From Alphaproteobacteria bacterium (GTDB lineage Bacteria > Pseudomonadota > Alphaproteobacteria > Rickettsiales > JADKJE01): 64,000 nt of DNA. The position numbers and the translations under genes were made by a program. The notes under the pieces are model-generated. The model was given only the letters and a program-made list of their open reading frames with translations, made no database searches and had not been told where the DNA came from. The stretch is taken from assembly GCA_016722515.1 (NCBI GenBank), contig JADKJE010000001.1:132189-196188 (forward strand), read 5' to 3'. Below, piece by piece: positions 6,781-48,964 of this stretch (position 1 is its first letter; the number at the start of each line of letters is the position of its first letter).

Positions 6781-7952
6781 TCCAGCCAAAGCGCGTATCC
6801 ATTCTTGGATCTACGGGCTCCATTGGCCAACATTCGCTTCATTTAATCAAGCAGCACCCTGAGCTCTTTGCTGTTGAATGCTTAACCGCTCATCGCAATG
6901 TTGATTTGCTAGCAAAGCAGGCCATTGAATTTAATGCCAAACATGCCGTTATCGCCGATGAAGGGTTATTTGCCGATTTAAAATCAGCGCTCTTTGGCAC
7001 ATCCATTCATGTGAGTGCCGGATTAAACGCCATTGACGATGCCGCGTCAATCCCTGCTGAAGTCGTCGTTGCAGGGATTGTTGGCGCTGTTGGCCTAAAA
7101 CCCACCATGACGGCTATCAAGCAAGGAACAACCATTGCCTTTGCTAATAAGGAATGTCTGGTCTGCGCTGGCGATATTATGCTTGATGCCGTAAAACACC
7201 ATAATGCCACTCTTATACCCGTTGACTCCGAGCATTCAGCTATTTTTCAGGTTTTCGATACCACGGATCCCCAATCGGTTGAAAAAATTATTTTAACCGC
7301 ATCGGGTGGCCCCCTCCTCAATTATCCACTTGAAGCCTTATCTATGGTTAAACCTGAACAGGCATTAAACCACCCAACCTGGAATATGGGAGCCAAAATT
7401 TCAATTGATTCTGCCACGATGATGAATAAGGGACTTGAGATTATTGAGGCTCACTATCTCTTTCCAGTTAGGCTTGATCAGATTGATGTCCTCATTCATC
7501 CAGAATCCATCATTCACAGCATGGTTCAATATCAAGATGGATCAGTCCTTGCCCAATTGGGTACACCTGATATGTGCACACCACTATCCTACGCGCTTCA
7601 TTATCCACAACGGCTTGCAGTGAAGAGCAAACGCCTTGATTTGGTTCAACTAAAAACGCTCTCATTCTTTGAGCCCGACCTCAGCCGCTTTCCTGCCTTG
7701 ACCTTAGCCAGGCAAGCATTGACGGCAGGTCTTCATGCTACCATTATGTTAAATAGCGCCAATGAAGTCGCGGTTGATTTATATCTTAACAACAAGATTC
7801 GTTTTACAGACATCACTCTGTTGATTGAATCTTGCCTGCAAGTACTCCCTTCTGATGGCACGATAAGCACAATAGACGATGTTATACATTATAATGAGCT
7901 ATGCAACATCACGGCTCTTGAAATTGCTCATTCCGGTACTTTTACGTACTAG
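6777..7952 (+). CDS. dxr: 1-deoxy-D-xylulose 5-phosphate reductoisomerase
   Basis: ATGA overlap with cdsA. Motifs ILGSTGSIGQ (NADPH binding), DSEHSAIFQ and NKGLEIIEAHYLF. Confidence 0.95.
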   Translation: MIQPKRVSILGSTGSIGQHSLHLIKQHPELFAVECLTAHRNVDLLAKQAIEFNAKHAVIADEGLFADLKSALFGTSIHVSAGLNAIDDAASIPAEVVVAGIVGAVGLKPTMTAIKQGTTIAFANKECLVCAGDIMLDAVKHHNATLIPVDSEHSAIFQVFDTTDPQSVEKIILTASGGPLLNYPLEALSMVKPEQALNHPTWNMGAKISIDSATMMNKGLEIIEAHYLFPVRLDQIDVLIHPESIIHSMVQYQDGSVLAQLGTPDMCTPLSYALHYPQRLAVKSKRLDLVQLKTLSFFEPDLSRFPALTLARQALTAGLHATIMLNSANEVAVDLYLNNKIRFTDITLLIESCLQVLPSDGTISTIDDVIHYNELCNITALEIAHSGTFTY

Positions 7953-10697: not shown

Positions 10698-10750
10698 CTG
10701 TTGATGGTCATCATTGAGCTCATTCTTAAAATGAAGAAATAATTCCTTGG

Positions 10751-12481
10751 CTAGCTGCCCTCCCCCCTTGCTAGGGCAATTTTCATTCCTTCACTTATAT
10801 CTCTACTCCTGATAGGCGAATGATTATCTGCTAGTAGCGCCTTGACCTCCGCACGATTCCCCCATCGACACCATTGCCAGAAAATAAGCTTATAATTTTC
10901 GGTATAAAAAATCATATCTGAAGAGGGTACTTTCGCTTTCAATTGCACATAAAGAGATTCTCTTCTTTCTGTAGCTGCCCATCTTAGACATAGATTCATA
11001 TGTTCCAGCGCACCAGCCCCATGTTGAATTAACATAGCAATGGCAAGTAGTTGCTCATCTGTAATACGCTCTTTTTCCTCCAGCCTGCCGCAACCAAGCT
11101 TGAATGCCTCCACTAAAATATCACTTTCATCCCAACCAAGCTGTCGAATTCCGATGTTGATTTTCTGTGACTGCATAAGCTCCACTAAAGTCGTAATCAC
11201 CTCACTTCTTTGGTGTTCAACGGCCATTAATAAACAATGTGGATAATAGAGATAGCCATGTTCAAAGTACGAAAATAGAAACCGTATAATGCTGTTACGG
11301 TTATAACGCAGAGCGGCTTCTAATGCATCTAAAACACCCGGCTTAAGAACAAGTTTATCTTGCCTATCTTTCGCATGCCTTTGTACAACGTCTGCTTTTA
11401 ATAAGCGGGCTATAGGCTCCTCATATCCAAGCCCCATACAAACCGTTAGTATGCGTAGATAATGTTCCTCGGTCTGGCATCCTGGGAGCATCGCCATCAT
11501 GCTATTAAACAAAAGTCCGTCTGCTTGTTCACATTGAATCGAACGATCTCTATCTGATTGTAACATCACCTGTTCAAGATAAGAGCCCAGTAAAAGCGGA
11601 TCATCCTCAAGGCACTGAACGATAAACTGCGATGACTGTCCTAATGTTCCAAACAACTCAACATGGTCTAGGCATAGCGTAAACAAATTAATTAATGAAT
11701 CATTTAATACTAATTTAAAATAATGATCTCTATCAATAAACTCTAACACTTTCTTTTGATTGGGCAACACAATGCCTATCAGGAGAAAAGCTTCAACCAC
11801 ATGGCCTAGAGTCATTAAATTATTTAACTCTGTTTCATAGAATTCTGCTTTCTTGAGAAACCGTTCTTCATACTCATCACGCTCAGACGATTTTAGGTTG
11901 GTAATCCGTTCCTTTTCCATCCAAACGTCAGCCAATGTACATGGCAAAATTAACCACGCATTGGCTTGCATCACATTATTGGCAATAATGCTGTGATTAT
12001 GGATCGTATCAATAGCTAGTATAGACGACTGACTTAAAGGCGCCCCAAGCAGTTCCTGGGAAAACTCGTCTAGACAATCCAATACTGCTTTTCGATAGGC
12101 CTCACCCGTAACCATCAAATCAATTTGAACATGAGGGTTATTTTTATAAACAGCTCCCCTTAAAAGATATTCTTGAGATTCTGGACCAAACCACATTAAG
12201 TCGCATAATTGTCTGATAGAACTCAAATCATCCATGACAATAGTATTTTTATTATGGAGGTTTAGTCCTCTGAAATACCAATACTTAAAATCGTGAACAG
12301 TAGCCGACCTCAAAAAACAAAGCCATGCTTCAAGTTGACGGTGGTTACCGCCAGATAATTGCTTTATAAAATCCTCTTGAACCTGGAGATTATAAAGAAT
12401 CATACTCCGGTCAATTGGCTTAATGTCATCTATTATTTGCTTCATAGCGGTATGAATACAATAGAGATACCAACCATTCAA
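10751..12481 (-). CDS. large hypothetical protein (576 aa), weak ankyrin-like helical repeats near the C-terminus
   Basis: Uninterrupted ORF, co-oriented with and 53 nt upstream of the 932-aa ORF. The track start is TTG; an alternative ATG lies at 12445 (MKQIIDD...). C-terminal segments such as LDALEAALRYNRNSIIRFL and LLMAVEHQRSEVITTLVEL resemble ANK helices only loosely. Confidence 0.55.
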   Translation of the reverse strand: MNGWYLYCIHTAMKQIIDDIKPIDRSMILYNLQVQEDFIKQLSGGNHRQLEAWLCFLRSATVHDFKYWYFRGLNLHNKNTIVMDDLSSIRQLCDLMWFGPESQEYLLRGAVYKNNPHVQIDLMVTGEAYRKAVLDCLDEFSQELLGAPLSQSSILAIDTIHNHSIIANNVMQANAWLILPCTLADVWMEKERITNLKSSERDEYEERFLKKAEFYETELNNLMTLGHVVEAFLLIGIVLPNQKKVLEFIDRDHYFKLVLNDSLINLFTLCLDHVELFGTLGQSSQFIVQCLEDDPLLLGSYLEQVMLQSDRDRSIQCEQADGLLFNSMMAMLPGCQTEEHYLRILTVCMGLGYEEPIARLLKADVVQRHAKDRQDKLVLKPGVLDALEAALRYNRNSIIRFLFSYFEHGYLYYPHCLLMAVEHQRSEVITTLVELMQSQKINIGIRQLGWDESDILVEAFKLGCGRLEEKERITDEQLLAIAMLIQHGAGALEHMNLCLRWAATERRESLYVQLKAKVPSSDMIFYTENYKLIFWQWCRWGNRAEVKALLADNHSPIRSRDISEGMKIALARGEGS

Positions 12482-37292: not shown

Positions 37293-38366
37293 TTACGTTC
37301 TCGTGCGTACAGAACTAAGTGGTGAGTTTGCTTGATTTGCACGCTCACTAATAATTCGATCCGCAAAATTCAATTTATCGTGTTCGATGAGTTTGTTACT
37401 TACGGGTATTATCAATGGTTTCTTGAGGCCTTGGGCATCTTTTATTGTTTTCTCCAACGCATCCCAAAGAGTTCCTTGCACCTCAGCAAAGGAGAGTAAC
37501 TCAGGCATTTTTTGGCGAAGCTTTGAAGCTGACCCAAGTTCTTCAAGCGCCATTTTTCGCGCTGTCTCGGCATGAATAAATTCTACACCATCGACATTGT
37601 CAACCATACCACTTTTATCTATGTTTATATGTGAGCTAAAATAAGGCAAAATATTAGTTTCATATTCGGCCTCATTGAAAAAAGGCTTAAATCCTTTGAA
37701 TATATTATAAACAGAAGCCATCATTCCAATGTTATCCTGATCTCCTCCAGAAAAACGTTCTTGTACATAGGAGACTAAATAAGGACAATTTTTATAAAGA
37801 TATTCAACCACAGCACGATAGAGGATTTCCTGAGGTAGAATAGGGTTATTAAAGGCGGATATCATAGTAATGGGTGGAAGCTTATAAACCCTCTCAGCTA
37901 CCGCATTAAACGCACATTCCGCCAATTTTGGGTGAGCAAGTTTTCCGTCACCCATACCCGCTTCTTCACCAATATTGGCTAAAATCAGGTTTAATTTCTC
38001 ATATTCGCCATTCTTAGCAGCATTGAGCCCTGCTTGGATAAGGCAGGGTACAGTAGGCGCTACTCTTGCCAAAAATACATGTCGAAAAATAGAAAACTGC
38101 GATGCACTCATCTCCCGTCTTTCTGATAAATCGGCAAGATCATGAAAAACCTTATGATTCATGGCCTTATGTGAAGTCAAGCTATCCTCAAATTTTTGAA
38201 ACTCAGAGGATAAGTCAAACCCGCTATCTGTAACAAAATGTCTCTGATCATTAAATAAATTAAGATGAACACCGCTTCCGATAAGATTAGTAGTAAATCT
38301 ACTAACAGCGGATTTCCGAAGCCCCTGATTACTGCCACCACGCGAAAAAACTGTTGCTAATTTCAT
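37293..38366 (-). CDS. hypothetical protein, possibly a heme-oxygenase-like di-iron (CADD/HDO-type) enzyme
   Basis: 357-aa helical ORF. NIGEEAGMGDGKLAHPKL (E..G......H..L) and VEFIHAE (E..H) resemble the metal-ligand helices of the Haem_oxygenase_2/CADD family. The assignment is tentative. Confidence 0.35.
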   Translation of the reverse strand: MKLATVFSRGGSNQGLRKSAVSRFTTNLIGSGVHLNLFNDQRHFVTDSGFDLSSEFQKFEDSLTSHKAMNHKVFHDLADLSERREMSASQFSIFRHVFLARVAPTVPCLIQAGLNAAKNGEYEKLNLILANIGEEAGMGDGKLAHPKLAECAFNAVAERVYKLPPITMISAFNNPILPQEILYRAVVEYLYKNCPYLVSYVQERFSGGDQDNIGMMASVYNIFKGFKPFFNEAEYETNILPYFSSHINIDKSGMVDNVDGVEFIHAETARKMALEELGSASKLRQKMPELLSFAEVQGTLWDALEKTIKDAQGLKKPLIIPVSNKLIEHDKLNFADRIISERANQANSPLSSVRTRT

Positions 38367-38826
38367 AAGTCAATACTTTACTTCATGTTGAATGTTGATA
38401 AATTTAAGTCGAAAAATACGTGCTTTTGCAATTAGAAGCGTATCTATAAACATTAGAGGATATTTTATATATTCTCTAAATATTTATTTAGTTACCCCTA
38501 AATTAACCTAATAAAACAAGTTAAAAATCAAAAAACTTCGTATAATACTAATCTTTGGCCTATTCTATTCTATAAATCCATATTCTGCAATTTTATTTTT
38601 TGTCACACAAGCTTCATAAACCAATATAACAAAATAAAAAACATTATTAATAAAAATATTATCACAATAATTACTCAACGAACACATTAAAACACACAAA
38701 CAAATCAACAATTAAAATATGTTATTTAAACCAACGATTATATCATCTATGGTTTAACTAAGTTGTTGATTGATTGAGTTATTTAGCCTAGTATGGGCAT
38801 CTCCTATTTTACTTATAAAAACAACA

Positions 38827-40659
38827 ATGAAACGCAGTCCATTTCTTAGTTTATCTAGAGATTACCTTATTTTTGCACTTGCAGTAGGTGTGCTACTTGT
38901 TATTACAGGAATAACAACGGGTGTGGTTATTCAATATGCGAATAAAAATCAACTGTATCAACAATCGATCATCGAATCGAAAAACATCCATCAAAATTTA
39001 GCCAATATTTTTACCAGTACCAATCTCATTATGTCGAATATGGGGCATCAAATCCAAAAGCATGGGACGATTGATTCGTCTTTTATCTATGAACTTTTTC
39101 AGCAAAATTCCCGCGACATCATTAGTGCAAAAGCCGCCTTCTCCTGGTCCCTTTTCGACTGGGTTGACACCCAGAACCGCCAGATTATAAATAGTAAAAC
39201 TGGTATTACTAGCCATCCCAAAGATATGTCAATGCGTGAATACACCACCAAAAGCAGAGCCTTACCGTGGACGCTTCAATTTTCAAAACCAGCCATTGGG
39301 CATCCCAGCAAACAATGGGTTATTCCTGCTGGTACCGGCATTACCGATTATGCAGGAAATTACCTCGGGGTTATCGTAGTGGGATTCAATATTGTGGACC
39401 TGGTTAATAGCATTACCAGAAATCTTATTTATCCTAATATTAGGTATATCGTTATTGATAACCAGGGAAGAGTCGTACTTCAATCTTCCGATAATGCCTT
39501 TTCGCCAACCACTAATTTTTTCAATTTTCTTAGCCCTACTTATTTCGCTAAACCCATGAAAATCCTTAATAAACCTCTCACTATTGCGGGGAACTCCTAT
39601 CTCTATTATGAAAAAATGGAAAATTACCCATTCATTGTCTTAACTGGATTTAAGGAATCGTACTTATTAGAAACCTATACAGCACTTCTTCTTCCAAGGC
39701 TATTAGAGTTGCTGATCTGTGGCTTATTTATTCTGATTCTTCTTTTCCTTTTCTATCGTAAAATTGTGTCGCCTATCCTTATACTTGCCCAACGTGCAGA
39801 TGCCCTATCTCGCGGCAAGACAGATATAGATATCCCACTGATCAAGACCCAAGAGATGTGGAGCTTAACCAAAGCACTTATACGCGTACGCTGGTATATA
39901 AAAACTGAACGCGCTTTAAGGTCACAACTTGAATTGACCAATCAAAAACTAAAACAAATATCTCTTGATAAATCGAATCTGGTCTCCCTTACTAGCCATG
40001 AACTTCGAGGGCCACTTACCGTCGTGGATGCGAATGCACAAATCATCAAGCAACAAATCTATGGTCCTGTCCCCCCCAAATATTTAGAATGTGTTGATGA
40101 CATCCACGAAGCTTCACAAGAATTAACACAGTTTGTCGATGATTTACTGGACGAAATGAAAGCTGAAGCTGGATTCTACCCTATCGAAATTGGACGTGTG
40201 AATATCCACGCAATCATACATAGAGCTATTAAACTTAATATTGGTAGAGCCCATCGTTCTCATATAACGTTCCATGAAGAGTTGGAAGATAATCTTCCTA
40301 GGATAGTTGGTGATGCAAAGCGTATCAGGCAGGTTCTCAATAATCTGATCAGTAATGCTATAAAATATTCTCCTGAGTTTTCCACGGTTACCATCGGATG
40401 TCGATACCTCAAAAACGGGGAAATTGAAATGAGTGTGAGTGATCAAGGTTTTGGCATGACACCAGAAGATATCGAAATCGCTATATCTCCTTATGGTACT
40501 ATCCAAAATCCAAACAGTTCGAAGGTCGAATCGACAGGACTTGGCTTACCCTTGTCTAAAATGATTATTGAGCAGCATGGCGCTGAATTTTTTATAGAAA
40601 GCACCAAATGGAAAGGAACCACTGTCCGAATTATTTTTCCTAAAGACAAAGTATTTTAA
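38827..40659 (+). CDS. sensor histidine kinase with a periplasmic Cache-like sensing domain (no adjacent response regulator)
   Basis: Two TM segments flank a ~270-aa periplasmic region. H-box SHELRGPLTVV, N-box LNNLISNAIKYSP, G-boxes SDQGFGM and GLGLPLS. Confidence 0.9.
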   Translation: MKRSPFLSLSRDYLIFALAVGVLLVITGITTGVVIQYANKNQLYQQSIIESKNIHQNLANIFTSTNLIMSNMGHQIQKHGTIDSSFIYELFQQNSRDIISAKAAFSWSLFDWVDTQNRQIINSKTGITSHPKDMSMREYTTKSRALPWTLQFSKPAIGHPSKQWVIPAGTGITDYAGNYLGVIVVGFNIVDLVNSITRNLIYPNIRYIVIDNQGRVVLQSSDNAFSPTTNFFNFLSPTYFAKPMKILNKPLTIAGNSYLYYEKMENYPFIVLTGFKESYLLETYTALLLPRLLELLICGLFILILLFLFYRKIVSPILILAQRADALSRGKTDIDIPLIKTQEMWSLTKALIRVRWYIKTERALRSQLELTNQKLKQISLDKSNLVSLTSHELRGPLTVVDANAQIIKQQIYGPVPPKYLECVDDIHEASQELTQFVDDLLDEMKAEAGFYPIEIGRVNIHAIIHRAIKLNIGRAHRSHITFHEELEDNLPRIVGDAKRIRQVLNNLISNAIKYSPEFSTVTIGCRYLKNGEIEMSVSDQGFGMTPEDIEIAISPYGTIQNPNSSKVESTGLGLPLSKMIIEQHGAEFFIESTKWKGTTVRIIFPKDKVF

Positions 40660-40731: not shown

Positions 40732-40979
40732 TTCCCTATTTCTAATTTACCAAATATGCTGTGCCGCAAATACCGGAGATCTTTGTCGCGGACATCTCTC
40801 GCATTTCGTCTTGAAGCGAATCCATAATCGCTTCAATAGAAAGATAAAGTCGATTTCTCCTATCTTCGTCAATGGGACACCCGTAACAAGACTTTAGAGA
40901 TCAATCAACTTTTTTGACCTGCAGCCAGGTGGTTAAATATGGTTATATCTTTCCCTAATCATGGTAGCGTGAACGAGGC

Positions 40980-41365
40980 ATGAAAGATGGTTTTGAGAGC
41001 TCAATCGCTGAGTTTTGGTTTGTGAATCCTATCCTTATGGGTGATGACAGTCTTATCATCGCAGGACACAGCAGACTATCTGCTGCTCAGCGCCTTGGAC
41101 TTAAAGAAGTTCCCGCCATTATTCTCACATCTCACTGAAAACCAACGTCGTGCATGCATCATCGCCGATAACACAAGAGTCGAGACATCGTACTTGATTG
41201 TTTCGCTGGATCAGGATCGCCCCTCATTGCAGCAGCAAAAACAGGACGCTCTGCACAACTCATGGAACTTGATCCAAAATACTGTGATGTGATCGTTCGC
41301 CGATGGCCGGAATTCACGGGCAGAGATGTAATTCATGAAGAAGAAAAACTGACCTTCGCTAACAC
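40980..41365 (+). pseudogene. remnant of a ParB-like nuclease domain / DNA methyltransferase fusion gene
   Basis: KDGFESSIAEFWFVNPILMGDDSLIIAGHSRLSAAQRLGLKEVPAIIL (ParB-N-like) is followed by a stop and a frameshift (LTENQRRACIIADN in another frame). Next comes the methylase C-terminus RDIVLDCFAGSGSPLIAAAKTGRSAQLMELDPKYCDVIVRRWPEFTG. The catalytic core is missing. Confidence 0.6.
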
Positions 41366-41961
41366 ATACAAAAAATGCGCCAATCTCCCATTTAACTTTC
41401 GGTTGAAAATAATCCCTTGTTTACAACTTTATACCATGGTATACAATTTCCCCTCTGTGGGAAATAGCCATTAATTCGCATTCGGTGTTTATGAGAAAAT
41501 TGGGACAAGAATTGCTAAGAAAATTACATCATTCTCTTGTATTGCTGCTGTCTGCGCTACTGGTTCTGCAGCCGATTTTAGCCCCCATCGTCTACGCACA
41601 AACGGTGATTACGCCAGACACCGCCGCGCCCATAGCCAATCAACCCACGGTTGCAGAATCTCTTAATCACACACCCGTCGAAAACATTGCCACACCTAAT
41701 GGAGGCGGAGTTTCTCACAATAAGCTTGGGGAACTACAAGTTGGTAACGAGGGGTTGATTGTTAATAATTCAGCCAGTTCAGGAATATCAACGATTGGTA
41801 GCATTGTGGTCGGCAATGGCAACCTTACTTCCGGTAATGAAGCACGCATTATTATTAATGAAGTAACCGGAACGAATCCATCTTCCTTGCAAGGCCCAAC
41901 GGAAATCTTTGGCAGAGAAGCCGAGTATGTCGTGGCTAACCCCAACGGTATCAGCTGCAAT
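41221..41961 (+). repeat. direct repeat copy 1 (741 bp): methylase 3' remnant + promoter region + 5' 477 nt of a TPS-domain gene
   Basis: Nearly identical to 44457-45199 (a few substitutions and two 1-nt indels seen by eye). Identity ends after ...ATCAGCTGCAAT. Confidence 0.9.
41420..41447 (+). promoter_or_regulatory. promoter candidate TTTACA-16 nt-TACAAT overlapping the 12-bp palindrome ATACCATGGTAT
   Basis: Located 38 nt upstream of the TPS ORF start. Duplicated at 44658-44685, where the -35 reads TTTCCA. Confidence 0.35.
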
Positions 41962-41964
41962 TAA
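41485..41964 (+). pseudogene. truncated two-partner-secretion (haemagglutination activity/TPS) domain, CdiA/FhaB-like, copy 1
   Basis: Signal-like N-terminus, then NGGGVSHNKLGELQVGNEGLIVNN...ARIIINEVTGTNPSSLQGPTEIFGREAEYVVANPNGISCN. The ORF stops where the repeat ends and the downstream coding frame differs. Confidence 0.8.
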
Positions 41965-43816
41965 CAGTTACGCCGAATCGCATAAGATGAACAGCATTGG
42001 CGTATCGGTTGGTATTCAAGAAGGCTTTATGGGTTTGATAGATTCGCTAAAGGGCATCTGCGATAAAGGTTCTGGCAGTTATGCTGGTATCCAAACGGCG
42101 GCGGATGCGTATAAGTGAGCCTCGCAATTGACTTCGATCTATAATGCCAGCAGTGGTTTTACCGATCCTTCTAAATTACTGCCCAGCATTTCCCTTACCC
42201 TGGGAATATCCACCAGTTCGTCTAAATATCAAACGAGCGGCAGCAATTATACGCAAACCAATATCACTGCCGGCCATGATTTTATCAGCCATAGCGGTAA
42301 GGACACCAACGTAAAGGGAGCTAATATCCTGGCGCAGAATGTGAACATGGATGTAGGGCAAAACCTTACCGTAAAATCGGTACAAGACACTCAGGAAACC
42401 AGCCAGAGCAGTCATAGCGGTGGGTTGAGTGTGGGTATTAGTTATGGCGTGACCGGTATGTCGGGAACGTTTGGTGCTAATGCCTCTGCCAGCAGTGGCG
42501 AGGGGCATCGCACATGGACAGACCATGTCACTTCGATTATCGGTACCGATTCTGTTGCTATCAACACCGATGGTAAAACAACCCTCACCGGTGCGCTCAT
42601 CGCCCAAGCTACTCCCCAGGAAGACGGCACTTACATCGACGGAGGCAATCTCACCATCAACACCGGCTCACTGGCAGTGAGTGATTTGACCGATGAAGAT
42701 ATCTGGAATTCCAGCGGTGCTGGAATAGCGGTAGGTTTCGGCGGTCAAGTAGGGCAACCTGTGTTTGGTTCCGGCTCGAACCTCTCTTCTTCTTACACCC
42801 CATCACTGCAAATTGCCCAAGACACCACCATCGGCGTAACCCACGCGACGATTGGCAGTGGCACGATTTACATCGGCAACCAAACAGCTAGCGATGTTCA
42901 ACTAAAAGGCGTTAATCGTGATATCAACAAGACGCAGGAAATCCTGGTCGATGAGCATGACCATCTGGATATTGAAGTTCCGCTGGATGGGTGGAAAAAT
43001 ATTAAGGCAGCAGCAGAAGATATCAAAAATAAATTAGATAAAATATTCAGTGGCGATATAAACAATGACTATGAACAATATCTCCATGACCAAAAAGAAA
43101 AATATGCTGATGCCTATGGCGAAGATAATGCTGAAAAAGGGGTTGCTTTAGGTAACCAATTGATAGCCAGTGTTCAAAGTGGCGGCTGCCCTGTTGCCTT
43201 TAACCTAGAATCTTTTCATTTGAGGAACTTGTTTATTTCTGAAGCATATGCAGATGAGGCAGTTATGGCCTCACTCAGCCTATGCTTAGCAGGTATCGCA
43301 GCACCGGAAATTGTGGTTGCAATCGGAATTGGTGTTGCCTTGGGTGCTTTGGGTGCGGCTTTATGGAATGGACTTGACCGGGCTCAAAAAGCACTTCTCT
43401 ATAAGTATGGTTACGTGTATAAAGACGGTGAACTTAAAGATAAAACTGGAAAGGTGATTTTTTCAACTGGAGGGGCAACAGCGGCTGCTGGGTCACCTAA
43501 ATGTGATCCAGATGATTGTGATTTGAATGATCCTAAATACGATAAAGATGGTAATTTATTTGGATCCAACGGTCAAAAACTCGATGGTTCGAAATCATTT
43601 TACCTTAAAAGCGGAGAACGAATCGATATTGAAAATTTTGAGCCGGGAAAAAAACCTGGTCAAATACATACGGAATATGAAGGAACAAAATATATTTATA
43701 ATATTAATACAGAAGAATGGGCATCACAAAGCGGAGATCTGCTAAATAAGACAACAACTAATATATTGAATAATTCAAACGCCCTTGCTAAAGCTTTAAA
43801 ATATATGGGGTATTAA
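41909..43816 (+). pseudogene. CdiA-like C-terminal region: FHA-2-type Ser/Gly beta-helix repeats, glycine-zipper hydrophobic segment and a C-terminal toxin candidate of unknown family
   Basis: ORFs 41909-42118 and 42128-43816 share one frame, separated by a TGA at 42116-42118. Repeats such as SSHSGGLSVGISYGVTGMSGTFGANASASSG. Also GVNRDINKTQEILVDEHDHLDIEV, then AVMASLSLCLAGIAAPEIVVAIGIGVALGALGAALW, then a ~150-aa polar tip. Confidence 0.65.
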
Positions 43817-44434
43817 ATGAAGCCTAATATTAATCTATATAAGAATGATAAATTTATTCATCTAATAAAAAAATGGGATGTTAGAGAGAACTTAGTCAAA
43901 GAAACCGTACTATGCCCTAAACTTCAAAATCTATTAGATGAAGGATTCAATTACGAAGACGGAACTGTTACCTTCAAGAAGTTAAAAGATCATACCTTTA
44001 ATAAAAAATATGATACTGATAGGACTGAGTATGAAGCAAGAATAAATCGAATTGCTATACTAGATTATATTAACGGATATCGAATAGGACCTATCGACAA
44101 TAAAACCATACTCATTGATCAATATTCTTTATGTCAGACAATGAAATTTTGTGTTGAGGTTATAAGATCCTTGAAAATTTTAGAAAATATAAATAAAGTT
44201 TTACTTTCGGTTGGAGTTGATGAAGGTGAAGATATATTCTCGGGTGAAGATGAGGATTCAGTGGTAATTCCTTCGTGTACATTTAGATTTTATCTAATGA
44301 GGGACACTGAAGTAGATTGCATAAGTTATTGGCGCATGGATGAATATATAGATGCAGCGATAGCCATTGTAATAAACAATATTATCGATGCGGATCCTAT
44401 GTATTTTTTAGAAAAATTAGCAGAAAAAAAATAA
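43817..44434 (+). CDS. putative cognate immunity protein (205 aa, unknown family)
   Basis: The ATG directly abuts the toxin-gene TAA (TAAATG). Very AT-rich. The assignment rests on position only. Confidence 0.5.
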   Translation: MKPNINLYKNDKFIHLIKKWDVRENLVKETVLCPKLQNLLDEGFNYEDGTVTFKKLKDHTFNKKYDTDRTEYEARINRIAILDYINGYRIGPIDNKTILIDQYSLCQTMKFCVEVIRSLKILENINKVLLSVGVDEGEDIFSGEDEDSVVIPSCTFRFYLMRDTEVDCISYWRMDEYIDAAIAIVINNIIDADPMYFLEKLAEKK

Positions 44435-44456
44435 ACAATCCTGGGTTAATGCCCCC

Positions 44457-45199
44457 CCCTCATTGCAGCAGCAAAAACAGGACGCTCTGCACAACTCATG
44501 GAACTTGATCCAAAATACTGTGATGTGGATCGTTCGCCGATGGCCGGAATTCACGGGCAGAGATGTAATTCATGAAGAAGAAAAACTGACCTTCGCTAAC
44601 TTACATACAAAAATGCGCCAATCTCCCATTTAACTTTCGGTTGAAAATAATCCCTTGTTTCCAACTTTATACCATGGTATACAATTTCCCCTCTGTGGGA
44701 AATAGCCATTAATTCGCATTCGGTGTTTATGAGAAAATTGGGTCAAGAATTGCTAAAAAAATTACATCATTCTCTTGTATTGCTGCTGTCTGCGCTACTG
44801 GTTCTGCAGCCGATGTTAGCCCCCATCGTCTACGCACAAACGGTGATTACGCCAGACACCGCCGCGCCCATAGCCAATCAACCCACGGTTGCAGAATCTC
44901 TTAATCATACACCCGTGGAAAATATTGCCACACCTAATGGAGGCGGAGTTTCTCACAATAAGCTTGGGGAACTACAAGTTGGTAACGAGGGGTTGATTGT
45001 TAATAATTCAGCCAGTTCAGGAATATCAACGATTGGTAGCATTGTGGTCGGCAATGGCAACCTTACTTCCGGTAATGAAGCACGCATTATTATTAATGAA
45101 GTAACCGGAACGAATCCATCTTCCTTGCAAGGCCCAACGGAAATCTTTGGCAGAGAAGCCGAGTATGTCGTGGCTAACCCCAACGGTATCAGCTGCAAT
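44457..45199 (+). repeat. direct repeat copy 2 (743 bp)
   Basis: See copy 1. The left boundary sits at a C8 tract (44452-44459), 22 nt after the preceding ORF stop. Confidence 0.9.
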
Positions 45200-46574
45200 G
45201 GCTGTGGATTTTTCAACACGCCTAAAGTCACGTTAGCTACCAGAGTGCCCCATATGGATGGTGCGGGCAATATAGACCATATCACCGTTGATAAAGGCAA
45301 CATCCTGATTGAAGGCAACGGCGTTGATGCCAGCCAGACCGACTCCTTTGATATCATCGCCCGTGCTACACAAATTCACGCAGCCATTTATGGCGGTAAT
45401 ACAGTGCGCGTCACGACAGGGCGCAACCAAGTCAATTATCAAACGGGTGTAGCCACTCCACTTGCTGCCACACCGGAATCAGAGGTTAGCAAATCAATGC
45501 CACGTCGTTTGCGGTCCAATATGAAGGCCAGGAGGGAGAAAATCTCAGCCAATCCATTGACCGTCTCAAACAACAACCCGGCTTGCAGTGGCTGGGACAA
45601 CTCCAACAACAAAATAATGTAGGCTGGGAAAGGGTCGATCCTGTGTATCAGGAATGGTACCACAAAACCACCGGCCTTTCAGCACCTGCTGCTGCCGTCA
45701 TTGCCATTGCTGTAGCCGCAGCAACAGGTGGTATGAGCGCTCCCATAGTCGGTGCAGCAGAAGGATCGGCATCAGCCTTTATGGCCAATGCTGCGTTCAG
45801 TACATTGGTCACACAAGCAAGCATTGCGTTGATCAACAATCAAGGCAATATCCTGGGTGCACTGGAAGACATGACAAATTTGTGAGTGATAATACGCCTG
45901 GTTTTGTTAAGAAAGGGCTGGGTGCTGTCTCTGATTTTTATGCGGAGGGTGTTCAATCCGAAATCATGGGTGTTGATCTCGGCCTGCGCTTAACACTCGG
46001 CAATGAGCAAGTGGATGCATTCTATGACTCGATAGGTGCTCAAAAGGATGCAGCTGGGGCATGGTTGTATGACCAATTTACACCAGATCAACTCCACGCT
46101 ATTGTTGGGTTTGGTTCTGTGTTTTTACCTGCACTTGCTCCAGAAAGATCAGTCGCAGGTGCAGCGGCAGCAACAGACAGTTTAGTATTGAAGTCCGAGA
46201 TCGGTGCTGCGGTAAGTGGGTTTGCCGATAAAGCTGCGACGCTTGCAGCAAACAAAGCGAATGGTTCTGCATTTGAGGCGTCCATATATCAAGGAGCTAA
46301 AGAAGAAATGCCTAATGCTGTCCAACAAATAACAGTTCAAACTCCAGGAGGCTATAAAACAAGAATTGATATTATGGGTGTCAATTCCGAAGGAAATGTT
46401 GTATGTATAGAGTGTAAATCTTCATTAACAGCTCCTTTGACAGGAAACCAGAAATTAGCTTTTCCAGAAATTGAAAAATTGGGGGAGTTGTTCAAGGTAG
46501 TGGTAAAGAGCCATTTACTGGTGGGTATGTTGTTCCGCCAACATCTGTACAAATTATTAGGCCTTAATTGTTAA
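44723..46574 (+). pseudogene. CdiA-like mini-gene copy 2: TPS domain + DUF637-like conserved region + PD-(D/E)xK nuclease-type toxin tip, broken by at least three -1 frame changes
   Basis: Frame A (44723-45622) carries the full TPS domain (...ANPNGISCNGCGFFNTPKVTLATR...). Frame B (open from ~45487) reads SIDRLKQQPGLQWLGQL...GLSAPAAAVIAIAVAAATGG...ALINNQGNILGAL. Frame C (to 46574) contains ...GGYKTRIDIMGVNSEGNVVCIECKSSLTAPLTGNQKLAFPEIEK. After the G5 tract at 46481-46485 a better-looking tail (GGVVQGSGKEPFTGGYVVPPTSVQIIRP*) lies in another frame and ends at 46567. Confidence 0.75.
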
Positions 46575-46593: not shown

Positions 46594-46923
46594 ATGTCAG
46601 TATCTGATATCAGAAAAATAGATATGATAGGAACAAGCCAAGAAAGTCAACGGGTTGTGTTGACAATTTCTGACCATTTAGAATGGGAAAACGACATTAA
46701 TACTCATCTATTTATACTCCAAGAGAAAATTAATACATACTTGGGATTTATTGAAAGCAATGAAATATATAAAACTTTTCCAGATTCAATAAATAGAGAT
46801 ATTGAAATCAGGATTTATTTTAAGTGTGCCCCCCCACCAAGTACATCTAATTTCTTTAGAAAAATAGAGGAAATTTTGAGTATCAAGAAAATATTTCTAC
46901 AGATAATTGATGCCAAGATTTAA
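46594..46923 (+). CDS. putative immunity protein (DUF6572-like)
   Basis: 109 aa directly downstream of the toxin tip. VVLTISDHLEWENDINTHLFILQEKINTYLGFIESNEIYKTFP matches my recollection of the DUF6572 immunity-type family (..L.isDhl.W.....Hl..LqeKin.Yl.fies.e). Unverified. Confidence 0.6.
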   Translation: MSVSDIRKIDMIGTSQESQRVVLTISDHLEWENDINTHLFILQEKINTYLGFIESNEIYKTFPDSINRDIEIRIYFKCAPPPSTSNFFRKIEEILSIKKIFLQIIDAKI

Positions 46924-47048
46924 GTGTAACGTAGGCTACGACCTCTAAAATAGTAAGAATACGAGACAAACCACAGTGGTTGTTATGAGTGATTCTGGTA
47001 AGTTCATAACAACGTATGGCAGTGACGTGCTCCCAATTGTTGTACCAG

Positions 47049-47939
47049 TTAGAAGTAGAGTCTTGAGTTCTTTATAACTGCTTTTGGTTTCGCGATCAAC
47101 ACCGCATTGGGTATGCCCAATGCGGTGTTGATCGCGGCGAATTGTGCGGGTGTCTGGTAATCCAGGCTGGAATGGGGGCGCACATGGTTATAATCCTGCC
47201 TCCATTCTTCAATAATTACCCGTGCCTCCCGCAAACTCGTGAACCAATGTTCATTTAAACATTCATCTCTGATCCTCCCATTTAAACTTTCTGTAAAACC
47301 ATTCTCTGAAGGCTTTCCAGGACGGATATAGTGCCATTTGATCCCATGATGCTCTGCCCACATTAACACCGCTTTGCTGGTCAATTCTGTACCATTATCA
47401 CTGATGATTGTCCCCGGCTTTCCATATCGCTTAATCAGAACGTCAAGTTCACGTACGACGCGGTGACCACCAATCGACAGGTCTGCAACGAGGTTAAGGC
47501 ATTGGCGGCTATAGTGATCCATAATCCCAAGGATACGGAATCTTCTGCCATCTGCTAAAGCATCACTCATAAAATCAAGTGACCACACTTCGTGCAATCG
47601 GCGAGAGCATGGCAAGGGAACGCGGCTTCCCAATGCGCGTTTCCTGCCCTTGCGACGTTTAACAGATAAATTTTCTTCTCGGTATAATCGGTAAACTTTC
47701 TTCAAATTGATAACATAACCTTCTCGTTTCAATAAAATAGCCAAACGACGGTAACCAAAACGGCAACGCTCGTGCGCAAGTTTCTTTAGGACAGCACGCA
47801 GCTCACTATCATCATGCTTCCGCTTATGACGGTGGGTGCTGCGAGCAAATCTAATAGCCTGCAAACGCGACGCTCTGATAAACCTTTCGTTTGGCAGATA
47901 TCTTCTACCAACAAACGCCGAGATGCAGGCTTTTACCAC
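47049..47939 (-). CDS. IS3-family transposase OrfB (DDE integrase core)
   Basis: Motifs [32 protein letters not shown] and [11 protein letters not shown]. Confidence 0.85.
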
Positions 47940-47972
47940 TTTTTGACAGGGCTTCCTTCAATATCGCTTTGT

Positions 47973-48185
47973 CTAATTCAAAAGCTTCTTCAAACGACGG
48001 TTCTCTTCATCAAGCGCCTTCAATCTGCTTGCTTCCGATACACCAAGCCCACCGTACTTCGATTTCCATTTATAAAATGTTGCTGAACTTATCCCATATT
48101 TCCGGCATAAATCTCCTGTTCCAGTACCGCTTTCATGCTCATGAAGTATGCGAATGATTTGATCTTCCGTGTAACGCTTTTTCAT
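47973..48185 (-). CDS. IS3-family transposase OrfA (HTH + leucine zipper)
   Basis: MKKRYTEDQIIRILHEHESGTGTGDLCRKYGISSATFYKWKSKYGG...LKALDEENRRLKKLL. Confidence 0.85.
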   Translation of the reverse strand: MKKRYTEDQIIRILHEHESGTGTGDLCRKYGISSATFYKWKSKYGGLGVSEASRLKALDEENRRLKKLLN

Positions 48186-48255
48186 AGTCTGCTCCTTTTA
48201 GGTTAAAGTTAACAGACTCTACTTTTTTGTGGACCAATTTTTGGGGAGCACGTCA

Positions 48256-48686
48256 TTGGGTTTGGCTCCGTATATCTTGCACCATTTTTTGGACCTTCAC
48301 TAAAAGTGACAGAGAGAGCTGGTAGTATGTATGCTGGCGCCTCCTTGACTAAAAGTGAGTTGCCCAGTACTTTAGTGCGTGTCGTGACAGGTGATGTTGA
48401 TTTAACCACTTTAGGAGCACCGGGTGCTATAGATTTTTTTGTTACCACCCCGGAAAGTATAGTTGAAATGAATTCTTTAGAAATCTCTAAAGCTTTGGCT
48501 ATTCCAGAGAGTTCAACAGGTTATACGATAATTGAATTCTCTGCTCCAAAAAGCGGTATCGCATCGCCAGTATTTAGATCAAATCCTGGTTTTGTTGGTA
48601 AGGGTATCACAGCTGGTGGTGCGAGTGAGTTTGTGATTCCCAATCAACCAATTCCACTTGGAGCTATTATTAGGAAAGTACGATGA
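48256..48686 (+). pseudogene. 5'-truncated orphan polymorphic-toxin C-terminal domain (family not identified)
   Basis: The reading frame is open from the first base after the IS end (GFGSVYLAPFFGPSLKVTERAGSMYAGASL...). It ends ...SNPGFVGKGITAGGASEFVIPNQPIPLGAIIRKVR and is followed by an overlapping immunity-type ORF. Confidence 0.6.
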
Positions 48687-48964
48687 TGAAAATCCAAAAT
48701 TCAGAAACTGAAATTACAGGTAGCTGGCTAATGAAAGAGGGAAGAGTAATAAATGATGAAGCAAGTTATAGAATAAATGATTTAATTAGTACTTATTTAT
48801 TAAAATTAGGAAAAGACATAAGTGGATGGAATACGTTATATCGTGATCCTTATGATGGGAGATATTGGGAATTAATATATCCGCAAAGCGAGATTCATGG
48901 AGGTGGCCCCCCTCAGTTGCGCTGCATTAAAGAAGAAGAAATAAAAAATAAATACCATGGCTAG
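48683..48964 (+). CDS. putative immunity protein (Imm27-like)
   Basis: ATGA overlap with the toxin fragment. SGWNTLYRDPYDGRYWELIYPQSEIHGGGPPQL matches my recollection of the Imm27 family signature (GW..LY.DP.DgR.WEl.YP.SE.HGGGP). Unverified. Confidence 0.6.
   Translation: MMKIQNSETEITGSWLMKEGRVINDEASYRINDLISTYLLKLGKDISGWNTLYRDPYDGRYWELIYPQSEIHGGGPPQLRCIKEEEIKNKYHG

What the first reader, a model, noticed from the sequence alone, without database searches (positions are those of the whole stretch)
41221..45199. Two ~742-bp direct repeats give each toxin cassette its own promoter and TPS 5' end (mini-CdiA architecture)
Positions 41221-41961 and 44457-45199 are near-identical by eye, with a few substitutions and two single-nt indels. 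Each repeat carries the 3' tail of the methyltransferase pseudogene and a TTTACA/TTTCCA-16-TACAAT promoter-like element overlapping the palindrome ATACCATGGTAT. Each also carries the first ~159 codons of a TPS-domain gene. Copy 1 ends exactly at ...ATCAGCTGCAAT and jumps out of frame into FHA-2-type repeats. Copy 2 continues through the full TPS domain and then jumps near 45.48-45.59 kb into the conserved pre-toxin region. So the whole multi-kb FHA shaft is missing from both. The layout R-(tip1-imm1)-R-(tip2-imm2) looks like the product of recombination between cdiA loci. It would allow toxin-tip switching or deletion by homologous recombination between the repeats.
Basis: seen in the sequence. 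Interest (0 to 1): 0.7.

Follow-up and report, generated by a model that had tools for sequence, protein, structure and literature searches.

The report
Duplicated head of dead toxin genes
A real 742-base direct repeat duplicates the start of a contact-dependent toxin gene in front of two toxin/immunity cassettes, but both fused genes are broken, shaft-less remnants with no transporter nearby, so this looks like a decaying toxin island that keeps its immunity genes, not a working "mini-toxin" system.

Summary
The repeat is real: 41220-41961 and 44456-45199 are 98.5% identical. Each copy holds the 3' stub of a dead ParB-methyltransferase gene, a promoter-like TTTACA/TTTCCA-16-TACAAT with a 14-nt palindrome, and codons 1-159 of a TPS domain.

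The "mini-CdiA" reading fails as a working system.
- Copy 1 hits a TAA made by the joint itself. The FHA-2/toxin frame is +1 and carries a GGA>TGA nonsense codon.
- Copy 2 keeps only about 73% of the Pfam TPS model. It then crosses two out-of-frame deletion joints and one more frameshift inside the toxin.
- The 64-kb window has no TpsB transporter and no FHA-1 shaft. In 73 of 80 related loci cdiB sits directly upstream.
- Immunity genes 2 and 3 match their Pfam models end to end, and immunity gene 1 is an open ORF.
- A third orphan (Ntox10/Imm27) and an IS3 element lie downstream.

Best reading: a degenerate CDI toxin/immunity island in a long-contig alphaproteobacterial MAG. A tandem duplication or unequal exchange, with its novel joint at 44455/44456, doubled the gene head. 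The heads may now serve mainly as promoters for immunity genes.

One oddity remains. Another locus in the same MAG breaks the TPS domain within 2 nt of the same site.

The parts
40930..41370 (+). Remnant of a ParB-domain DNA methyltransferase gene (pseudogene). It has internal stops and lacks most of the methylase domain. Its last ~150 nt lie inside repeat copy 1.
   Evidence: Translation. Pfam ParB_N positions 33-78 of 95 and N6_N4_Mtase positions 180-220 of 221 on the conceptual product.
41220..41961 (+). Repeat copy 1 (742 nt). The left edge is native, because the methylase frame runs through it. The right edge is deletion joint J1.
41420..41447 (+). Promoter-like TTTACA-16-TACAAT overlapping the 14-nt palindrome TATACCATGGTATA (41430-41443).
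   Evidence: The number of promoter-like sites in the region is not above chance (26 versus 22.3 +/- 5.3), so function is inferred only.
41485..41964 (+). TPS-domain fragment 1: signal peptide plus TPS to ...ANPNGISCN. The stop codon TAA is created by joint J1 (41961|41962).
   Evidence: Pfam TPS positions 3-99 of 252, E=2.4e-21. 94% identical to P0026 residues 1-157. Annotated as MBL0317829, 157 aa.
41957..43816 (+). FHA-2 repeats, then a pretoxin stretch (..GVNRDINKTQEILVDEHDHLDIEVPL), then variable toxin tip 1. It lies in the +1 frame relative to the TPS fragment and has an in-frame TGA at 42116-42118 where paralogues have Gly.
   Evidence: Pfam Fil_haemagg_2. 80% identical to P0034 residues 82-429 over 41957-43000. 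Paralogue sequences read KGAS where the window reads K*AS.
43817..44434 (+). Putative immunity gene 1 (205 aa, 30% GC). Open ORF that starts right after the toxin stop.
   Evidence: One distant homologue of similar length, 197 aa, aligned 6-198 to 5-192. No Pfam or NCBIfam family.
44435..44455 (+). 21-nt spacer ending at the novel joint J2 (44455|44456), which lies within a C8 run. Copy 1 has C4 at this point.
44456..45199 (+). Repeat copy 2 (744 nt). The left edge is the novel joint. The right edge is native, because the TPS domain continues.
44658..44685 (+). Promoter-like TTTCCA-16-TACAAT with the same palindrome (44668-44681).
44723..45622 (+). TPS-domain fragment 2. TPS homology ends at 45493 (residue ~256) and the remaining 43 codons are read out of frame.
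   Evidence: Pfam TPS positions 3-183 of 252. Fha30 residues 8-206 of 301. P0026 residues 1-255 at 93% identity.
45541..45873 (+). Pre-toxin region and the first 32 positions of DUF637, in a different frame from the TPS fragment. It ends at a second deletion joint (GALEDM | DKFVSDN).
   Evidence: Pfam DUF637 positions 1-32 of 168. P0043 at 95% and P0047 at 50% identity.
45873..46567 (+). Constant stretch (DKFVSDN...GFGSVFL) followed by toxin tip 2. There is a frameshift between 46448 and 46484, next to A5 and G5 runs. The stop codon is at 46565-46567.
   Evidence: P0044 at 78% over 45873-46214. P0045 matches in two frames, 46191-46484 and 46448-46564. Sequence context.
46594..46923 (+). Immunity gene 2 (DUF6572), intact.
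   Evidence: Pfam DUF6572 positions 1-101 of 106, E=3e-32.
47023..48255 (-). IS3-family insertion sequence with TGACGTGCTCCC terminal inverted repeats. There is no matching target duplication (CAG versus TTG).
   Evidence: Pfam rve, rve_3 and HTH_21. Inverted repeats. End sequences.
48256..48686 (+). Third orphan toxin: the end of the constant stretch (IGFGSVYL) plus an Ntox10 domain, cut on its 5' side by the IS element.
   Evidence: Pfam Ntox10 positions 67-192 of 193, E=5e-43.
48683..48964 (+). Immunity gene 3 (Imm27), intact.
   Evidence: Pfam Imm27 positions 2-67 of 67.

Best explanation
This is a degenerate contact-dependent inhibition (CDI, type Vb) toxin/immunity island in an uncultured alphaproteobacterium. 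The head of a cdiA-type gene has been duplicated once. That head comprises 150 nt of a dead upstream methylase gene, the intergenic promoter-like region, the signal peptide and the first 157-159 TPS codons.

SHOWN.
- Each head is joined by illegitimate, out-of-frame deletion joints to a different toxin tip followed by an immunity gene.
- The multi-kb FHA-1 shaft and the TpsB transporter are absent.
- Both toxin reading frames are broken.
- Immunity genes 2 and 3 are complete against their Pfam models and immunity gene 1 is an open ORF.

INFERRED.
- The repeat arose by a tandem duplication or unequal exchange between sister chromosomes or alleles of this locus. Homology-facilitated illegitimate recombination would give an equivalent product. 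The single novel joint is imm1+21 nt :: methylase stub (44455|44456).
- The shaft deletions happened before or after that event.
- No CdiA can be secreted from this locus.
- What selection still keeps is immunity. The two promoter-bearing heads now most likely act as promoters that transcribe through the dead tips into imm1 and imm2.
- RecA-mediated crossover between the repeats would delete or amplify the 3.2-kb tip1/imm1 unit.
For: Repeat and contents.

Cassette 1. The TPS ORF stops at a TAA formed by the joint. The FHA-2 frame is +1, with TGA at 42116 where paralogues P0034 and P0035 have Gly. That is a substitution, not an indel.

Cassette 2. TPS homology ends at 45493. The pre-DUF637 stretch lies in another frame. 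DUF637 stops at profile position 32 of 168, and the sequence then matches a different paralogue (P0044) in a third frame. The toxin matches P0045 in two frames.

Incomplete TPS domains. Coverage is 99/252 and 183/252 of the Pfam model, and Fha30 residues 8-206 of 301 for copy 2.

No transporter. tblastn with 64 diverse TpsB proteins finds nothing better than E=0.05 in the window. In contrast, 75 of 80 related loci have TpsB, 73 of them directly upstream on the same strand.

No shaft. P0026 residues 256-788 find nothing in the window. Of the 80 related TPS reading frames, 36 close at about 1,690 aa or more, 42 run off the fetched locus still open, and only 2 are shorter.

Immunity genes. DUF6572 covers 1-101 of 106 and Imm27 covers 2-67 of 67. 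imm1 is an open 205-aa ORF with a homologue of similar length.

Lesions are not general assembly noise. About 20 housekeeping genes in the window are full length against Pfam. The toxin-2 frameshift lies in sequence with no close paralogue among the MAG proteins found. An independent Logan assembly (P0032) reproduces the frameshifted tail of a paralogous TPS fragment.

The left edge looks accidental. It lies inside a dead gene, about 200 nt upstream of the promoter-like site.

Published precedent. Orphan CDI modules arise by tandem duplication or illegitimate recombination, and immunity genes are retained after effector loss (PMC6336857).
Against: - No reads, transcripts or strain comparisons could be examined, so promoter activity and immunity expression are pure inference.
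- The promoter-like match is not above chance on its own.
- The source is a MAG with Mb-scale contigs, so it was probably assembled from long reads. Some single-base frameshifts could be consensus errors, for example the one near the A5/G5 runs at ~46480 and the C8 run at the joint.
- The TPS-side breakpoint of cassette 1 recurs within 2 nt in another locus and another TPS subfamily of the same genome. Random deletion does not predict that.
- A TpsB encoded elsewhere in the genome cannot be excluded.
Confidence: 0.68

Rival explanations
1. Functional mini-CdiA toxins. The heads and tips are really in frame, the frameshifts are long-read consensus errors, and short TPS-tip proteins are exported by a TpsB encoded elsewhere in the genome.
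For: The same genome holds at least two more head-to-tip fusions: MBL0319198|MBL0319197, and MBL0318688|MBL0318687. In the second of these the TPS-to-pretoxin joint itself is in frame. Many cdiA paralogues of this MAG are split into consecutive fragments, which could reflect poor consensus in repeated genes. One frameshift sits next to A5 and G5 runs.
Against: - Cassette 1 keeps only 99 of 252 TPS model positions, breaking off right after the NPNGI motif. Its joint creates TAA, and a nonsense substitution follows 150 nt later.
- Cassette 2 would need at least three separate corrections, and its DUF637 is cut at position 32 of 168 by a true deletion joint.
- About 21 kb of housekeeping coding sequence in the same window has no frameshift.
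- A Logan contig from an independent assembly confirms a paralogous truncation.
Confidence: 0.06
2. Assembly artefact. Two strain alleles of one locus (head-tip1-imm1 and head-tip2-imm2) were wrongly concatenated by the metagenome assembler.
For: The source is a MAG. The two heads differ by about 1.5%, as alleles of co-occurring strains might. No independent assembly of this locus could be found.
Against: - The joint imm1+21 nt :: middle of the methylase stub has no long shared sequence that an overlap assembler could mis-join.
- The unit is 3.2 kb and the repeat 0.74 kb, both well within single long reads (inference).
- The tips are completely different, so this is not a simple expansion or collapse.
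Confidence: 0.07
3. A site-preferring recombination process. The TPS head, ending at ...CAGCTGCAAT(GG), is repeatedly joined to toxin-tip cassettes at a fixed nucleotide. This would be a recombination hot spot or a dedicated cassette-capture and switching mechanism, not random decay.
For: - Window joint J1 is ...TGCAAT|TAACAGT.
- In another locus, P0003 ends ISCNGSRP* and its neighbour P0035 begins MLLTPTASAAMVAGHD. LTPTASAA is the +1-frame reading of the ANPNGISCN DNA. That places the TPS-side break 2 nt from the window's, in a different TPS subfamily (79% identity) and with a different FHA-2-side break about 50 codons away.
- An 8-nt inverted repeat ATTGCAGC/GCTGCAAT sits at the two ends of the repeat.
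Against: - There are only two cases, and the second is reconstructed from protein sequences alone.
- Both joints are out of frame.
- The local quasi-palindrome folds no better than shuffled sequence (z=0.5).
- The left edge of the repeat lies inside a dead gene, with no recombinase gene or recognisable site.
- The two TPS-to-pretoxin joints use different positions (residue ~256 versus ~270).
Confidence: 0.1

Closest known systems
Orphan cdiA-CT/cdiI modules downstream of cdiBAI loci (E. coli-type CDI; described in PMC5422565, PMC6211672, PMC6336857)
   Same: It is a tandem array of toxin-tip plus immunity pairs. Each tip is preceded by a piece of the conserved cdiA region, 78-95% identical to other cdiA genes of the same genome. 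The tips and immunity genes have lower GC than the conserved parts. Immunity genes outlast toxins.
   Different: Canonical orphans lack any export signal or 5' end and sit behind a full-length cdiA with cdiB (PMC6211672). Here two of the three cassettes carry a duplicated promoter region, signal peptide and partial TPS domain. There is no full-length cdiA or cdiB within 64 kb.
Paralogous TpsA proteins with near-identical N-termini that share one TpsB (e.g. FhaB/FhaS with FhaC; Julio and Cotter 2005, as cited in PMC5422565)
   Same: There are two genes whose 5' TPS-coding ends are almost identical. In principle one transporter could then recognise both.
   Different: Those are intact, secreted proteins with complete TPS domains. 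Here the domains are truncated, out of frame with their tips, and no transporter is nearby. The comparison is from the literature and memory and was not tested here.
Immunity-gene arrays left after sequential effector displacement (type VI secretion in Vibrio cholerae, Kirchberger 2017, cited in PMC6336857; orphan immunity islets, PMC7400221)
   Same: Effector genes are degraded while cognate immunity genes stay open. The array was built by successive recombination events.
   Different: The secretion system is different (type Vb). The retention of duplicated gene heads that may donate promoters has not, as far as I found, been described there.
Silent toxin cassettes of Neisseria (tpsC and mafB-CT cassettes; PMC4287609)
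   Same: They are alternative 3' toxin/immunity cassettes that can replace the expressed tip by homologous recombination.
   Different: Neisseria cassettes have no 5' head of their own. An intact expressed gene exists in the same locus.

Membership tests
CDI system (CdiB/CdiA/CdiI, two-partner secretion) | CdiA begins with a complete TPS secretion domain | tested here: not met
   Copy 1 covers Pfam TPS positions 3-99 of 252. Copy 2 covers 3-183 of 252 and Fha30 residues 8-206 of 301.
CDI system (CdiB/CdiA/CdiI, two-partner secretion) | A TpsB/CdiB transporter gene in the locus | tested here: not met
   tblastn with 64 TpsB proteins against the window gives a best E of 0.05. TpsB lies directly upstream in 73 of 80 related loci. 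Pfam scans of 30 window ORFs found none. The rest of the genome could not be searched.
CDI system (CdiB/CdiA/CdiI, two-partner secretion) | A long FHA-1/FHA-2 beta-helical shaft within one continuous ORF | tested here: not met
   Only an FHA-2 piece is present, in cassette 1 (PF13332). P0026 residues 256-788 find no match in the window. The frames are broken.
CDI system (CdiB/CdiA/CdiI, two-partner secretion) | A pretoxin region followed by a variable C-terminal toxin and an adjacent immunity gene | tested here: met
   The constant-to-variable borders lie at ...DHLDIE(V/I)PL and at ...GFG[SA]V[FY]L when compared with paralogues. Ntox10/Imm27 and a DUF6572 immunity gene are present. The toxin activities themselves were not tested.
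Orphan cdiA-CT/cdiI module | Lies downstream of a full-length cdiA | tested here: not met
   No full-length cdiA exists in the 64-kb window.
Orphan cdiA-CT/cdiI module | Lacks its own 5' end and export signal | tested here: not met
   Cassettes 1 and 2 are each preceded by a signal peptide plus a TPS fragment, though out of frame. Cassette 3 does meet this feature.
Orphan cdiA-CT/cdiI module | Keeps a stretch homologous to the constant region of other cdiA genes, usable for recombination | tested here: met
   Identity is 80% to P0034, 95% to P0043 and 78% to P0044, all from the same genome.
Tandem (direct) segmental duplication | Two same-orientation copies with one novel joint, where the outer edges are native sequence | tested here: met
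   The left edge of copy 1 continues the methylase frame and the right edge of copy 2 continues the TPS domain. The novel joint is at 44455|44456.

The most novel reading that the evidence does not exclude
In this lineage the promoter-plus-TPS head is a reusable module that is recurrently joined to toxin-tip/immunity cassettes at a preferred nucleotide (...CAGCTGCAAT/GG). This would be a recombination hot spot or dedicated mechanism that creates shaft-less, head-bearing cassettes across about ten CDI loci. Its role could be to keep immunity genes expressed, or to shuffle tips between loci.
Probability: 0.1. Interest if true: 0.6.

Novelty: new variant of a known kind. Interest (0 to 1): 0.3.

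Why it matters
If the assembly is right, this locus shows a route of CDI decay that is not the textbook one. Instead of orphan tips piling up behind an intact cdiA, the costly shaft is deleted. The gene head, with its promoter, is kept and even duplicated in front of each toxin/immunity pair. That would be a cheap way to stay immune without paying for a 10-kb adhesin-toxin. It also creates direct repeats that can delete or amplify a cassette. The recurrence of head-to-tip fusions in one small genome, with one breakpoint reused within 2 nt, hints at a non-random process worth checking. The practical weight is modest: the genes are dead, the organism is uncultured, and nothing here opens a long-standing question.

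Tried and rejected
1. Independent copies of the locus. The look-up of encoding contigs with imm1, imm2, P0001, P0002, P0003 and P0032 found nothing on record.
2. Close relatives in 185,579 species genomes. The first scan with the TPS protein confirmed nothing. The second, with an alignment, gave only relatives at 50% identity or less (Rhizobium, Enterobacter, Pseudomonas). These were useful as a contrast set only.
3. Synteny through the neighbouring histidine kinase in JGI metagenomes gave only generic kinases at 24-44% identity over partial matches. The ancestral state of the site could therefore not be recovered.
4. Hairpin hot spot at the shared breakpoint. The DNA folds no better than shuffles (z 0.5-1.1), so this is not supported.
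5. Programmed +1 frameshifting across AAT-TAA-C (window) or CCA-TGA (other locus) was rejected on sequence grounds. The P-site codons cannot re-pair in the +1 frame. This is my reasoning, not a test.
6. Promoter scan. The sites exist, but the count in the region is at chance level.
7. Rfam found no RNA family anywhere in the window.
8. Naming toxin 1, toxin 2 and imm1. Pfam, NCBIfam and PDB sequence searches gave nothing significant.
9. A second TPS head within +/-10 kb was seen in 0 of 80 related loci. This is a weak test, because full-length genes fill the downstream flank.
10. The two short TPS ORFs among the relatives. L059 looks like a full-length cdiA split in two (a 1504-aa ORF follows directly), not a natural mini-CdiA. 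L073 has a 1084-aa ORF that I did not characterise.

Full report
OBSERVATION. The repeat is real. The repeat finder on the region and on the whole window, and a MAFFT alignment, give one long direct repeat: 41220-41961 versus 44456-45199. A global alignment gives 742 versus 744 nt, 7 substitutions and 4 gap columns, about 98.5% identity. It is the only repeat of at least 60 nt in the 64-kb window. All differences lie in the first 466 nt and the last 276 nt are identical (P about 0.01 if spread evenly). In the coding part there are 4 synonymous and 2 non-synonymous changes, both non-synonymous ones in the signal peptide.

WHAT EACH COPY CONTAINS.
- The last ~150 nt of a dead gene. Upstream of copy 1 the same frame reads a ParB_N fragment, stop codons, then the end of an N6/N4 DNA methylase (Pfam positions 180-220 of 221). 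Most of the methylase domain is gone.
- An intergenic stretch with TTTACA-16-TACAAT (copy 1) or TTTCCA-16-TACAAT (copy 2). It overlaps a perfect 14-nt palindrome, TATACCATGGTATA, that occurs nowhere else in the window. The region has no more promoter-like sites than shuffled sequence, so promoter function is an inference.
- A signal peptide and TPS-domain codons up to ...ANPNGISCN.

EDGES. The left edge of copy 1 is native, because the methylase frame runs through it. The right edge of copy 2 is native, because the TPS domain continues. The structure therefore has one duplication joint. This is J2 at 44455|44456, 21 nt after the imm1 stop, inside a C8 run where copy 1 has C4. It also has one deletion joint at the end of copy 1, J1 at 41961|41962.

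CASSETTE 1. J1 itself creates TAA, so the TPS ORF ends at residue 159 (Pfam TPS positions 3-99 of 252). From 41957 the +1 frame is 80% identical to residues 82-429 of a paralogue, P0034. This stretch covers FHA-2 repeats and a pretoxin stretch ending ...VDEHDHLDIEVPL, after which paralogues diverge. That frame carries TGA at 42116-42118 where P0034 and P0035 have glycine (KGAS), which is a substitution. The toxin tip (38% GC) has no family match. A 205-aa open ORF (30% GC) follows directly, with one distant homologue of similar length.

CASSETTE 2. TPS homology runs to 45493 (P0026 residues 1-255; Pfam positions 3-183 of 252; Fha30 residues 8-206 of 301), so the domain is not complete. From 45541 a different frame matches the pre-toxin region and only the first 32 of 168 DUF637 positions (95% to P0043). 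At 45873 the match switches to another paralogue (P0044, IIDKFVSDN...) in a third frame. This is a second deletion joint, not a simple frameshift. After ...GFGSVFL the tip becomes unique. It matches an ENA protein (P0045) and the C-termini of Bacillus proteins that NCBI names WXG100 family type VII secretion targets. The P0045 match falls in two frames, with the shift between 46448 and 46484 next to A5 and G5 runs. imm2 is a complete DUF6572 protein.

DOWNSTREAM. An IS3-family element lies at 47023-48255 with no matching target duplication. It abuts a third orphan that starts within the same constant stretch (IGFGSVYL) and carries Ntox10, followed by a complete Imm27.

WHAT IS MISSING. No TpsB/CdiB is present. 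Pfam scans of 30 ORFs found none, and tblastn with 64 diverse TpsB proteins gave nothing better than E=0.05. Among 80 related loci fetched from species genomes, 75 have TpsB, 73 of them directly upstream on the same strand. The FHA-1 shaft is also absent. P0026 residues 256-788 match nothing in the window. In the related loci, 36 TPS reading frames close at about 1,690 aa or more and 42 run off the fetched locus still open. Only two are shorter (688 and 1062 aa). One of those, L059, looks like a full-length gene split in two.

SOURCE AND RELIABILITY. The exact proteins are MBL0317829-35 of a MAG labelled Alphaproteobacteria bacterium (locus tag IPP74_) on a 1.04-Mb contig. Contigs of that size suggest long-read assembly, so single-base frameshifts deserve caution. 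Four points argue against general noise.
- About 20 housekeeping genes in the window are full length against Pfam.
- The nonsense codon is a substitution.
- The toxin-2 frameshift lies in sequence with no close paralogue among the MAG proteins found.
- A Logan contig (P0032) from an independent assembly reproduces the frameshifted tail of a paralogous TPS fragment.
The large joints cannot be base-calling errors. A chimeric concatenation of two strain alleles is unlikely, because the J2 joint has no long shared sequence. It cannot be excluded without reads.

THE REST OF THE GENOME (PROTEINS ONLY). Accession order shows about ten CDI-related loci. Two look like full-length genes split into many fragments: MBL0320035-40 and MBL0320097-100. 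At least two more are head-to-tip fusions.
- MBL0318688 (TPS, frameshifted) lies next to MBL0318687. In the latter...SKPTIAIDTSALGG is fused to the pretoxin constant stretch.
- MBL0319198 (TPS, 161 aa, ending ISCNGSRP*) lies next to MBL0319197 (FHA-2 plus toxin, 812 aa). The N-terminus of MBL0319197, MLLTPTASAAMVAGHD, begins with the +1-frame reading of the ANPNGISCN DNA. The window reads ..LTPTVSAAINSYAESHK in the same way. That places the TPS-side break 2 nt from the window's J1, in a different TPS subfamily and with a different FHA-2-side break.
I cannot explain this coincidence. The local quasi-palindrome folds no better than shuffles. An 8-nt inverted repeat, ATTGCAGC/GCTGCAAT, sits at the two ends of the repeat, and its meaning is unknown.

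INTERPRETATION. The functional reading is not supported: these are dead, shaft-less remnants with incomplete TPS domains and no transporter.

The simplest origin is a tandem duplication or unequal exchange between sister chromosomes or alleles of this locus. A homology-anchored illegitimate insertion, as proposed for Acinetobacter orphans (PMC6336857), would be equivalent. Either gives joint J2, with shaft deletions before or after.

Toxins are broken, while two immunity genes are complete against Pfam and the third is an open ORF. The pattern therefore matches the retention of immunity after effector loss described for CDI and T6SS arrays. I infer that the duplicated heads now mainly supply promoters for imm1 and imm2. 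I also infer that the repeats can delete or amplify the 3.2-kb unit by homologous recombination. Neither inference was testable here.

COMPARISON WITH KNOWN SYSTEMS. The locus works like an orphan cdiA-CT/cdiI array, but it fails two defining features of such orphans: it is not behind a full-length cdiA, and it has a 5' end of its own. It also fails three defining features of a CDI system: a complete TPS domain, a TpsB, and a continuous shaft-bearing ORF. It is best filed as a new structural variant of a decaying CDI island.

COMPARATIVE ROUTES THAT FAILED. See Tried and rejected.

Noticed in passing
41954-41961 (J1); other contigs of the same MAG (proteins P0003/P0035 = MBL0319198/MBL0319197): A second locus in the same genome breaks the TPS domain within 2 nt of the window's joint (...ISCN| versus ...ISCNG|). 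It also continues in the +1 frame into FHA-2, but about 50 codons further upstream on the FHA-2 side and in a different TPS subfamily. This was reconstructed from protein sequences only.
   Followed up: partly
41226-41233 and 41954-41961; 44462-44469 and 45192-45199: An 8-nt inverted repeat, ATTGCAGC ... GCTGCAAT, sits 6 nt inside the left edge and exactly at the right edge of each repeat copy. Only two other copies of the 8-mer occur in the window. It may be coincidence.
   Followed up: partly
47023-48255: An IS3-family element with good terminal inverted repeats but no matching target-site duplication (flanks CAG and TTG). Its left flank is the 3' region of imm2 and its right flank starts mid-way in the constant stretch of orphan 3. 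This suggests an IS-associated deletion.
   Followed up: partly
   Followed up: yes
46215-46567: Toxin tip 2 shares its C-terminal domain with an ENA metagenome protein and with Bacillus proteins that NCBI names WXG100 family type VII secretion targets (P0045, P0052, P0053). It is paired here with a DUF6572 immunity protein, so this looks like a toxin domain shared across secretion systems. No Pfam or PDB match was found.
   Followed up: partly
whole MAG (proteins): About ten CDI/TPS-related loci appear on five contigs of 1.04, 0.86, 0.20, 0.15 and 0.13 Mb. Most are split into several ORFs. That is an unusually CDI-rich and CDI-degraded genome.
   Followed up: partly
7899-12481 (- strand): Two large adjacent ORFs (932 and 576 aa) have no Pfam match at E<=1e-5. 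They lie near a YhdP-like 1025-aa protein.
   Followed up: no
37293-39000: A 357-aa ORF on the minus strand has no Pfam or NCBIfam family. Next to it is a low-GC stretch (31-34% against a window mean of 42%) just upstream of, and running into, the dCache histidine kinase gene that borders the island.
   Followed up: no
1-64000: No Rfam family reaches its gathering score anywhere in the 64 kb, tRNAs included.
   Followed up: no
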